Positions 1,012-1,056 of a DNA stretch of 7,997 nt are shown one piece after another. The notes below the pieces were generated by a model. The model did no database searches. It was not told where the DNA came from and saw nothing but the letters and a program-made list of their open reading frames with translations. The DNA lies in the NCBI RefSeq assembly GCF_003334335.1, contig NZ_QOWQ01000069.1. One strand, written 5' to 3'. How positions within the stretch are numbered: the first letter of the stretch is position 1; each line of letters opens with the position of its first letter. Made by a program: the position numbers and the translations under genes. The stretch is from Escherichia coli. GTDB lineage: Bacteria > Pseudomonadota > Gammaproteobacteria > Enterobacterales > Enterobacteriaceae.

Positions 1012-1056
1012 CTGCTCAAATTATAAGCTTGAACTAAGGTAATGCAAATGCATTAT
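1012..1056 (-). promoter_or_regulatory. Candidate prlF-yhaV promoter with a palindromic operator
   Basis: On the minus strand a perfect TATAAT (plus 1020-1025) lies about 36 nt upstream of the prlF ATG. A weak -35 (TTGCAT-like) sits within a perfect 16-bp palindrome TAATGCAAATGCATTA (plus 1040-1055). Hexamers were read by eye, with no experimental TSS. Confidence 0.4.

What the first reader, a model, noticed from the sequence alone, without database searches (positions are those of the whole stretch)
1040..1055. Perfect 16-bp palindrome TAATGCAAATGCATTA overlapping the predicted prlF -35 region
A perfect 7-2-7 palindrome sits 57-72 bp upstream of the prlF start and overlaps the -35 of the only convincing promoter (minus-strand TATAAT at plus 1020-1025). 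Type II TA operons are typically autorepressed by the antitoxin or the TA complex binding palindromic operators, so this is a strong candidate operator. Whether this exact sequence is the mapped binding site I cannot say from memory.
Basis: partly seen in the sequence, partly recalled or inferred. Interest (0 to 1): 0.4.

Follow-up and report, generated by a model that had tools for sequence, protein, structure and literature searches.

The report
PrlF antitoxin operator at prlF promoter
The inverted repeat upstream of E. coli prlF is almost certainly the known site where the PrlF-YhaV toxin-antitoxin complex shuts off its own promoter; it is real and strongly conserved, but it is ordinary, already-described biology.

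Summary
The sequence is there as described. TAATGCA-AA-TGCATTA lies at 1040-1055, 57-72 bp upstream of the prlF ATG. It fully contains the -35 hexamer of the only good promoter match (TTTGCA-17-TATAAT, minus strand). It is a 7-2-7 inverted repeat, not a strict 16-bp palindrome, because the central AA is not self-complementary.

Taken alone it is only marginally unusual (P about 0.07 for this 148-bp AT-rich spacer). Conservation is decisive. A box [C/T]AATGCA-NN-TGCATTA sits just upstream of prlF-family genes in 24 of 31 loci, from Escherichia to Photorhabdus, Legionella, roseobacter and Bradyrhizobium plasmids. PrlF identity falls to about 32-47% and the flanks are unrelated. All 29 box occurrences in 107 kb lie within 260 bp upstream of prlF (0.11 expected).

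The box always overlaps the core promoter. It covers the -35 in enterobacterial chromosomes, fills the spacer and start of the -10 elsewhere, and occupies both positions as tandem boxes on IncF-type plasmids.

Reviews citing Schmidt et al. 2007 say the PrlF2-YhaV4 complex binds a palindromic sequence in the prlF promoter. I could not read that paper to confirm the exact bases.

Verdict: operator interpretation supported; already known; low interest.

The parts
1040..1055 (.). PrlF box: the 7-2-7 inverted repeat TAATGCA-AA-TGCATTA, read as TAATGCATTTGCATTA in the prlF direction. Inferred operator of the prlF-yhaV promoter.
   Evidence: Searches give the sequence; 14 of 16 positions invariant in 8 enterobacterial loci; the box lies upstream of prlF-family genes in 24 of 31 loci and nowhere else in them.
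1040..1046 (.). Distal half-site (TAATGCA on the plus strand). The conserved core is AATGCA.
   Evidence: The outermost base varies (T or C), and the second base is G in a few loci.
1049..1055 (.). Promoter-proximal-on-plus half-site (TGCATTA). The conserved core is TGCATT.
1043..1048 (-). Predicted -35 hexamer TTTGCA (alternatively TTGCAT at 1047-1042 with a 16-nt spacer), entirely inside the box.
   Evidence: This is a consensus match only; no transcription start site was mapped here.
1020..1025 (-). Predicted -10 hexamer TATAAT.
   Evidence: It is kept in all Escherichia, Pseudocitrobacter and Enterobacter loci and is TATACT in Cedecea.
648..983 (-). prlF (sohA): the antitoxin and DNA-binding repressor, 111 aa.
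   Evidence: One search gives the ORF and the RefSeq annotation at 100% identity. NCBIfam equivalog NF007429, 170 bits against a cut-off of 125. Pfam PF15937.
184..648 (-). yhaV: RelE-superfamily ribonuclease toxin and, according to the literature, co-repressor. Its start overlaps the prlF stop.
   Evidence: One search gives the ORF, another the RefSeq annotation, and the literature.
1084..1109 (-). garD intrinsic terminator hairpin (10-bp stem, 6-nt loop, T-rich tail). It bounds the prlF regulatory region on the upstream side.
   Evidence: (repeat I1).

Best explanation
The repeat is the operator ('PrlF box') through which the prlF-yhaV operon represses its own transcription.

Proposed mechanism. 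The N-terminal AbrB/MazE-type domains of PrlF dimers recognise the two symmetric half-sites, AATGCA and TGCATT. Their centres are about 9 bp apart, roughly one helical turn. YhaV strengthens binding by holding PrlF in PrlF2-YhaV4 hexamers, and two hexamers sit cooperatively on the one palindrome. In E. coli the box contains the -35 hexamer, so the bound complex keeps sigma-70 RNA polymerase off the promoter. Loss of PrlF relieves repression, whether by proteolysis or by C-terminal frameshifts of the prlF1 type.

Shown here: the sequence, its overlap with the best promoter match, its conservation within E. coli and across the whole PrlF family, and its exclusive association with prlF-family genes.

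Taken from the literature: binding of the complex to a palindromic promoter sequence, hexamer stoichiometry, cooperativity, and autoregulation.

Inferred: that the published site is exactly this repeat, the assignment of one PrlF dimer to each half-site, and occlusion of the -35.
For: - Location. The box contains the -35 of the only 10-of-12 promoter match, 57-72 bp upstream of prlF and downstream of the garD terminator.
- Footprint. In a MAFFT alignment of 8 enterobacterial upstream regions, 14 of 16 box positions are invariant. The longest invariant runs in the 127 nt lie in the box.
- Family-wide association. The box is present upstream of PrlF homologues that are 32-77% identical, in Enterobacter, Cedecea, Photorhabdus, and Legionella, roseobacter, Bradyrhizobium, Pantoea and IncF-type plasmids, with unrelated flanks. 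There are 29 places in 24 of 31 loci, all within 260 bp upstream of the gene, against 0.11 expected.
- Central bases. The central two bases vary freely (TT, AA, AT, CT, AG) while the arms are fixed, as expected for two half-sites.
- Independence from promoter hexamers. The box covers the -35 in enterobacterial chromosomes. It fills the spacer after a TTGACA-like -35 in Photorhabdus and Legionella. IncF-type plasmids carry tandem boxes at both positions.
- Co-variation. The two loci with a different repeat at the same place (GTAAG..CTTAC) also differ in the PrlF DNA-binding segment, with K for R20 and K for A27. A plasmid copy lacking the N-terminal hairpin also lacks the box and the toxin gene.
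- Within E. coli. The 30-mer centred on the box is retained in 4982 genomes, against 3275 for the adjacent 30-mer.
- Literature. PrlF2-YhaV4 binds the palindromic sequence of the prlF promoter, cooperatively as a dimer of hexamers, and prlF1 derepresses. The toxin acts as co-repressor. PrlF controls expression of the operon.
Against: - No binding or expression experiment can be done here.
- The primary paper (Schmidt et al. 2007, PMID 17706670) was not held, so I could not confirm that the published oligonucleotide or footprint is exactly 1040-1055.
- The promoter is a consensus match; I found no mapped transcription start.
- No PrlF or YhaV structure exists in the PDB by sequence search. My AlphaFold monomer model gave no informative fold matches. 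The protein-DNA geometry is therefore inferred by analogy.
- Sequence support for the AbrB/MazE domain is sub-threshold (27.1 bits against a 28.3 cut-off; Pfam i-E 0.0023).
- The repeat alone is not statistically remarkable.
- Many of the 31 loci are close relatives. There are roughly ten independent contexts, and the co-variation rests on two related loci.
Confidence: 0.9

Rival explanations
1. The sequence is conserved only because it is the -35 region (or an extended promoter element) of the prlF promoter, and is not a repressor binding site.
For: The right-hand part of the box supplies TTTGCA/TTGCAT, the -35 of the best promoter match.
Against: Both arms are conserved, including the 7-8 bp upstream of the -35 hexamer. 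In Photorhabdus and Legionella (promoter matches), and by eye in the alphaproteobacterial plasmids, the same box lies between a separate TTGACA-like -35 and the -10. IncF-type plasmids carry 2-3 tandem copies. The two-fold symmetry and free central dinucleotide fit a dimeric protein site, not a sigma-70 element.
Confidence: 0.03
2. The box is bound by a different regulator or nucleoid protein, not by PrlF. CpxR, for example, has been reported to repress prlF.
For: A screen reported prlF as CpxR-repressed. The intergenic region is AT-rich.
Against: The box travels with prlF-family genes onto plasmids of Legionella, Rhodobacterales and Bradyrhizobium, where no host regulator is shared. It does not resemble the CpxR consensus GTAAA-N5-GTAAA (from my own knowledge). 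The nearest such sequence is elsewhere, GAAAA-N6-GTAAA at 1012-997. The box type co-varies with the PrlF N-terminal segment.
Confidence: 0.03
3. It is a chance palindrome in an AT-rich spacer with no function.
For: About 7% of simulated intergenic regions contain an equally good repeat. The window holds five others. The 17-mer CAATGCANNTGCATTAC also has at least 120 matches in viral contigs, none next to a PrlF gene.
Against: There are 29 occurrences upstream of prlF-family genes against 0.11 expected. Invariance holds across genera while the flanks diverge. The box is more strongly retained than the neighbouring 30-mer across about 5000 E. coli genomes.
Confidence: 0.01
4. It acts as a nucleic-acid hairpin (RNA terminator or attenuator, or DNA cruciform) rather than as a duplex protein site.
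For: The strand folds slightly better than shuffles (-5.2 kcal/mol, z = -2.6).
Against: A 7-bp stem with a 2-nt loop cannot form, and the best fold is weak and has no U tract. The box lies upstream of the predicted transcription start and downstream of the real garD terminator at 1084-1109. In other lineages the central bases change without compensatory logic because they are unpaired.
Confidence: 0.01

Closest known systems
The PrlF-YhaV binding site in the prlF-yhaV promoter (Schmidt et al. 2007, J Mol Biol 372:894; PMID 17706670)
   Same: Same locus, same proteins, and described in the same terms. [quoted passage not shown] From my memory of the abstract, the site is called a 'conserved sequence in the promoter region'. 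That matches the family-wide conservation found here.
   Different: Probably nothing. I could not read the paper, so I have not verified that its site is bases 1040-1055. The only other sizeable inverted repeat in the intergenic region is the garD terminator.
The mazEF operator ('alternating palindrome' in the mazEF P2 promoter), bound by MazE and MazE-MazF
   Same: The antitoxin belongs to the same AbrB/MazE swapped-hairpin class (Pfam MazE_antitoxin weak hit; literature). It is a palindromic site overlapping the operon's own promoter, and the toxin enhances binding (from my own knowledge).
   Different: The operator sequence and layout are unrelated. The toxin is a MazF/CcdB fold rather than RelE-like YhaV. 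The stoichiometry is MazF2-MazE2-MazF2 rather than PrlF2-YhaV4.
VapBC and FitAB operators, where the toxin is an obligate co-repressor
   Same: The reading of the mechanism is the same: antitoxin dimers each contact one half of an inverted repeat, and toxin oligomers bridge them. prlF-yhaV is grouped with these systems in the review read.
   Different: The toxins are PIN-domain proteins. FitA is ribbon-helix-helix, not AbrB-like. Their DNA complexes have been solved, while none exists for PrlF-YhaV.
AbrB, Abh and SpoVT transition-state regulators of Bacillus
   Same: They share the looped-hinge-helix, swapped-hairpin DNA-binding domain (TIGR01439 near-threshold hit; weak PDB AbrB hits).
   Different: AbrB binds many loosely defined sites with no strict consensus (from my own knowledge). 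The PrlF box is a sharply defined 6-2-6 palindrome with 12 essentially fixed bases.

Membership tests
Autoregulatory operator of a type II toxin-antitoxin operon | Inverted-repeat (dyad-symmetric) DNA site | tested here: met
   Seven-bp arms, 100% complementary, 2-bp spacer.
Autoregulatory operator of a type II toxin-antitoxin operon | Overlaps the core promoter of the operon it regulates | tested here: met
   The box contains the -35 of TTTGCA-17-TATAAT, and it overlaps the predicted promoter in the other lineages where one was found. The promoters are consensus predictions; no transcription start was mapped.
Autoregulatory operator of a type II toxin-antitoxin operon | Travels with the antitoxin gene across lineages and genomic contexts | tested here: met
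   The box is present in 24 of 31 loci. All 29 boxes lie within 260 bp upstream of prlF-family genes, against 0.11 expected. The alignment made without the motif gives the same result.
Autoregulatory operator of a type II toxin-antitoxin operon | Physically bound by the antitoxin or the toxin-antitoxin complex | not testable with these tools
   Secondary literature says the PrlF-YhaV complex binds a palindromic sequence in this promoter. The primary paper was not readable.
Autoregulatory operator of a type II toxin-antitoxin operon | Mutating the site relieves repression | not testable with these tools
   This requires promoter-reporter experiments.
PrlF-family antitoxin (NCBIfam NF007429, Pfam PF15937) paired with a YhaV toxin | Scores above the curated family threshold over the full length | tested here: met
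   NF007429 scores 170 bits against a cut-off of 125, over residues 1-111. PF15937 has i-E 7e-42.
PrlF-family antitoxin (NCBIfam NF007429, Pfam PF15937) paired with a YhaV toxin | A YhaV toxin gene lies immediately downstream in the same operon | tested here: met
   ORF 184-648 overlaps the prlF stop. It is annotated as YhaV in RefSeq genomes at 100% identity. NCBIfam itself gave no hit for it.
AbrB/MazE/SpoVT swapped-hairpin DNA-binding domain | Significant match to the domain model or fold | tested here: inconclusive
   TIGR01439 scores 27.1 bits against a 28.3 cut-off. Pfam MazE_antitoxin has i-E 0.0023. PDB AbrB chains match at E about 0.5. The AlphaFold monomer (pLDDT 75) shows the expected strand-helix-strand-strand order, but Foldseek found nothing, as expected for half of an intertwined dimer. 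The literature assigns the fold.
Conditional cooperativity (repression that depends on the toxin:antitoxin ratio) | Excess toxin destabilises the repressor-operator complex | not tested
   No data were obtained. The review read places prlF-yhaV only tentatively in the class where the toxin is required as co-repressor.

The most novel reading that the evidence does not exclude
The PrlF box is older and more fixed than the promoters around it, and it is shared by modules whose antitoxins are only about 45% identical. The E. coli chromosomal locus has one box over the -35. IncF-type plasmids found in E. coli, Citrobacter and Enterobacter carry prlF-yhaV homologues with two or three tandem boxes of the same core (CAATGCA-NN-TGCATTA), followed by a leader of about 180 nt. 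If the shared core means shared recognition, chromosomal PrlF-YhaV could cross-repress plasmid modules or be titrated by them. That would be a form of anti-addiction or regulatory cross-talk. Further boxes elsewhere in the genome could define a small PrlF regulon.
Probability: 0.3. Interest if true: 0.4.

Novelty: already known. Interest (0 to 1): 0.15.

Why it matters
It matters little beyond confirmation. The result assigns a function to 16 bases of the garD-prlF spacer and shows the first-stage reader inferred a real operator from sequence alone.

Three details add modestly to what reviews report. First, the box consensus holds across Alpha- and Gammaproteobacteria. Second, the promoter has shifted relative to a fixed operator. 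Third, diverged plasmid modules carry tandem copies of the same box. Together these give a ready-made design for half-site mutagenesis and raise a testable cross-talk question. No PrlF-YhaV or PrlF-YhaV-DNA structure exists in the PDB, so the sharply defined box would be a good crystallisation or cryo-EM substrate.

Tried and rejected
- Primary literature. I tried to read Schmidt et al. 2007 by PMID and PMC id, plus Snyder & Silhavy 1992 and Baird & Georgopoulos 1990. None is held.
- Sequence string searches. Full-text searches for the box sequence found only unrelated eukaryotic primer papers.
- Reg-Seq preprint. It lists prlF and yhaV among its promoters but gives no result in the text or the held supplement.
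- Reciprocal scan. I scanned viral contigs with CAATGCANNTGCATTAC. The scan stopped at 120 matches, and tblastn found no PrlF or YhaV relative in any of them. A 15-base pattern is therefore not diagnostic in a very large database. This is uninformative rather than contrary evidence.
- Structure route. The AlphaFold2 monomer (pLDDT 75, pTM 0.44) gave no Foldseek hit in the PDB at E below 0.6. A monomer of an intertwined dimer is not a searchable fold.
- Second box in E. coli. I looked by eye for a degenerate second box 17-18 bp either side of the E. coli box. I found only a half-site-like TCCATTA immediately upstream, which is not conserved in L003 or L006, so I rejected it. TAATGC at 970-975 inside the prlF coding sequence is likewise not conserved outside Escherichia.
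- Hairpin reading. Rejected.
- Service failures. Several literature queries and one supplement look-up failed because the service was busy.

Full report
**Identity of the window.** The window is E. coli chromosome. Bases 600-1200 are 100% identical to many complete E. coli genomes, where the features are annotated as yhaV, prlF and garD. The ORFs are yhaV at 184-648, prlF at 648-983 and garD at 1132-2703, all on the minus strand. PrlF scores 170 bits on the NCBIfam equivalog NF007429 (cut-off 125) and matches Pfam PF15937. Its matches to AbrB/MazE domain models are weak or sub-threshold.

**The observation.** TAATGCAAATGCATTA lies at 1040-1055. It is a perfect inverted repeat of 7-bp arms separated by 2 bp. 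The central AA is not self-complementary, so "perfect 16-bp palindrome" overstates it. The repeat lies 57-72 bp upstream of the prlF ATG at 983. It also lies 29 bp beyond the garD terminator hairpin (1084-1109) and its T tail. The only good sigma-70-type match on the prlF strand is TTTGCA (1048-1043), 17 nt, TATAAT (1025-1020), scoring 10 of 12. Its -35 hexamer lies inside the repeat.

The repeat alone is weak evidence. The window holds 6 comparable repeats against 2.85 expected, and 7% of simulated 148-bp spacers contain one.

**Conservation within Enterobacteriaceae.** I collected PrlF relatives, aligned diverse ones and fetched 19 genomic loci. Eight enterobacterial chromosomal upstream regions were aligned by MAFFT with no reference to the motif: E. 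coli, three other Escherichia, E. albertii, Pseudocitrobacter, Enterobacter sp. and Cedecea davisae, with PrlF 56-97% identical. In that alignment 14 of the 16 repeat positions are invariant. The only variable positions are the second base of one arm (A/G) and one central base. The -10 is also kept, and most other columns have diverged. One Escherichia locus (L003) has an entirely different upstream neighbour yet keeps the same box and -10.

**Conservation within E. coli.** The 30-mer centred on the box is retained (at least 28 exact bases) in 4982 genomes. The adjacent 30-mer is retained in 3275. About 5150-5350 genomes carry the locus. This comparison is rough, because one common SNP could explain much of the difference.

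**Conservation across the PrlF family.**
- Ten Photorhabdus loci (PrlF 42-47% identical) carry CAATG[C/T]ATTTGCATTAC or CGATGTATTTGCATTAC.
- A tblastn search of plasmids found 318 records with PrlF-family genes, and I fetched twelve.
- The box is present in plasmids of Legionella israelensis, Pseudosulfitobacter, Phaeobacter and Bradyrhizobium (one copy each), and Pantoea agglomerans (two copies, 17 bp apart).
- IncF-type plasmids of E. coli, Citrobacter freundii and Enterobacter hormaechei carry two or three copies with an 18-bp period.
- The core is AATGCA-NN-TGCATT. The outer bases are less fixed, and the central pair varies freely (TT, AA, AT, CT, AG).
- A relaxed pattern finds 29 places in 24 of the 31 loci (106,649 bp). 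All 29 lie within 260 bp upstream of the prlF-family gene, against 0.11 expected from Markov-1 simulations.
- The loci are not all independent; I count roughly ten distinct contexts.

**Loci without the box.** These exceptions fit the operator reading. Croceicoccus and Acetobacter plasmids have a different inverted repeat, GTAAG(G)-N6-8-(C)CTTAC, at the same place just after a TTGACA. Their PrlF proteins carry Lys in place of the otherwise conserved Arg20, and Lys in place of Ala27, within the conserved segment SK-T-R-QTT-P. A Klebsiella plasmid copy lacks the N-terminal hairpin, the toxin gene and the box. An E. coli strain (L008) with a degenerate left arm has a prlF that lacks its 5' end. 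These cases suggest direct recognition, but they are few.

**Relation to the promoter.** A simple hexamer scan gives two layouts. In Escherichia, Pseudocitrobacter, Enterobacter and Cedecea the right arm supplies the -35 (TTGCAT or TTTGCA), 16-17 bp upstream of TATAAT or TATACT. In Photorhabdus and Legionella the box starts 9 bp after the start of a separate TTGACA-like -35, fills the spacer, and its 3' TA(C) begins the -10. The alphaproteobacterial plasmids look the same by eye: TTGACA or TTGACT, then 2-3 nt, then the box. The IncF-type plasmids place tandem boxes at both positions. So the box is conserved independently of which promoter element it covers. This argues against the rival reading that it is merely a -35 region, and fits steric exclusion of RNA polymerase.

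**Literature.** The primary paper (Schmidt et al. 2007) and the older prlF/sohA papers are not held. [quoted passage not shown] It also states that the prlF1 allele derepresses prlF (PMC7781912). A 2021 review groups prlF-yhaV with systems in which the toxin is needed as co-repressor (PMC8138530). A 2017 review says PrlF controls expression of the operon (PMC5408214). From my own memory, the 2007 abstract speaks of high-specificity binding to "a conserved sequence in the promoter region". Apart from the garD terminator, this repeat is the only sizeable inverted repeat in the spacer, and it is the conserved element. It is therefore almost certainly the published site, although I did not see the published bases.

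**Mechanism.** I commit to the following. Two PrlF dimers, each within a PrlF2-YhaV4 hexamer, contact the two half-sites, whose centres are about 9 bp apart on one face of the helix. Cooperative binding covers the -35 and blocks initiation. Loss of PrlF or of its toxin-binding C-terminus relieves repression. The stoichiometry and cooperativity come from the reviews. The half-site assignment and -35 occlusion are my inference. No PrlF or YhaV structure is in the PDB, and my monomer model was not informative.

**Rival explanations.** A hairpin role is unlikely: the fold is -5.2 kcal/mol with no U tract, and the repeat lies upstream of the predicted start. Another regulator is unlikely because the box moves with prlF onto plasmids of distant hosts. 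Chance is excluded.

**Verdict.** The feature is already known and is an ordinary, well-behaved toxin-antitoxin operator. The modest additions are the family-wide consensus, the shift of the promoter relative to a fixed box, and the tandem boxes on diverged plasmid modules that share the chromosomal core, which raises a testable cross-regulation question.

Noticed in passing
window 713-726 (minus strand, inside prlF; ATTCAAC x2 at 726-713): prlF contains a tandem heptanucleotide repeat. Natural E. coli and Shigella sonnei proteins show it expanded. In-frame variants insert HSTFNIQ one to ten or more times. Out-of-frame variants replace the C-terminus with ...NKERNLSLAWTSTLMMRLATTNNGFSTKG. Strain SCU-106 has a prlF 84 bp longer. 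The 7-bp duplication is the classical prlF1 allele and recurs in evolution experiments. This looks like a slippage-prone switch that truncates the antitoxin. I did not check whether it has been described as phase variation.
   Followed up: partly
L020 331-382, L021 351-384, L023 342-375 (IncF-type plasmids); L022 500-532 (Pantoea plasmid): Plasmid prlF-yhaV homologues (about 42-48% PrlF identity) carry two or three tandem PrlF boxes with a 17-18 bp period. In the IncF-type plasmids these are followed by a leader of about 180 nt, with conserved stretches, before the annotated start. I did not examine what the leader does.
   Followed up: partly
L029 about 520-545 (Croceicoccus plasmid); L030 about 540-565 (Acetobacter plasmid): These loci have a different inverted repeat, GTAAG(G)-N6-8-(C)CTTAC, at the position the PrlF box occupies elsewhere. 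Lys replaces Arg20 and Ala27 in the PrlF N-terminal segment. This may be a switch in operator specificity.
   Followed up: partly
L008 about 2458-2520 (E. coli SCPM-O-B-8794, next to garD): The box has a degenerate left arm (CCATACATTTGCATTA), and the prlF homologue (66% identical) matches only from residue 11 with no obvious start codon. This appears to be a decaying or replaced module at the same chromosomal site.
   Followed up: no
L024 502-873 (K. pneumoniae plasmid): This gene is annotated as a PrlF-family antitoxin, but it lacks the N-terminal DNA-binding hairpin, has no YhaV gene downstream and has no PrlF box. It is probably a remnant.
   Followed up: no
window 1042-1053 (the ATGCAT inside the box); protein P0004: In some strains gene callers start 'PrlF' at the ATG inside the operator, giving a 134-aa protein that begins MHLHYFVEAYNL.... 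In this window that reading frame stops after 10 codons. The extension is almost certainly an annotation artefact, and it shows that the bases just downstream of the box vary between strains.
   Followed up: partly
window 997-1012 (minus strand, prlF 5' leader): GAAAA-N6-GTAAA loosely resembles a CpxR box. A published screen lists prlF as CpxR-repressed (PMC9600279). I could not retrieve the predicted site from the supplement.
   Followed up: no
window 997-1024 (plus strand): A plus-strand promoter-like match, TTTACA-16-AATTAT (9 of 12), points away from prlF towards the 3' end of garD. It is probably a chance match in AT-rich DNA.
   Followed up: no
window 648-983 (prlF coding sequence): A paper on intragenic antitoxins notes a clear internal translation-initiation signal within prlF in ribosome profiling data (PMC10400941). 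I did not examine this here.
   Followed up: no
L032-L151 (viral contigs): The 17-mer CAATGCANNTGCATTAC has at least 120 exact matches in IMG/VR contigs, none near a PrlF or YhaV relative. The box is informative only in its context upstream of prlF.
   Followed up: yes
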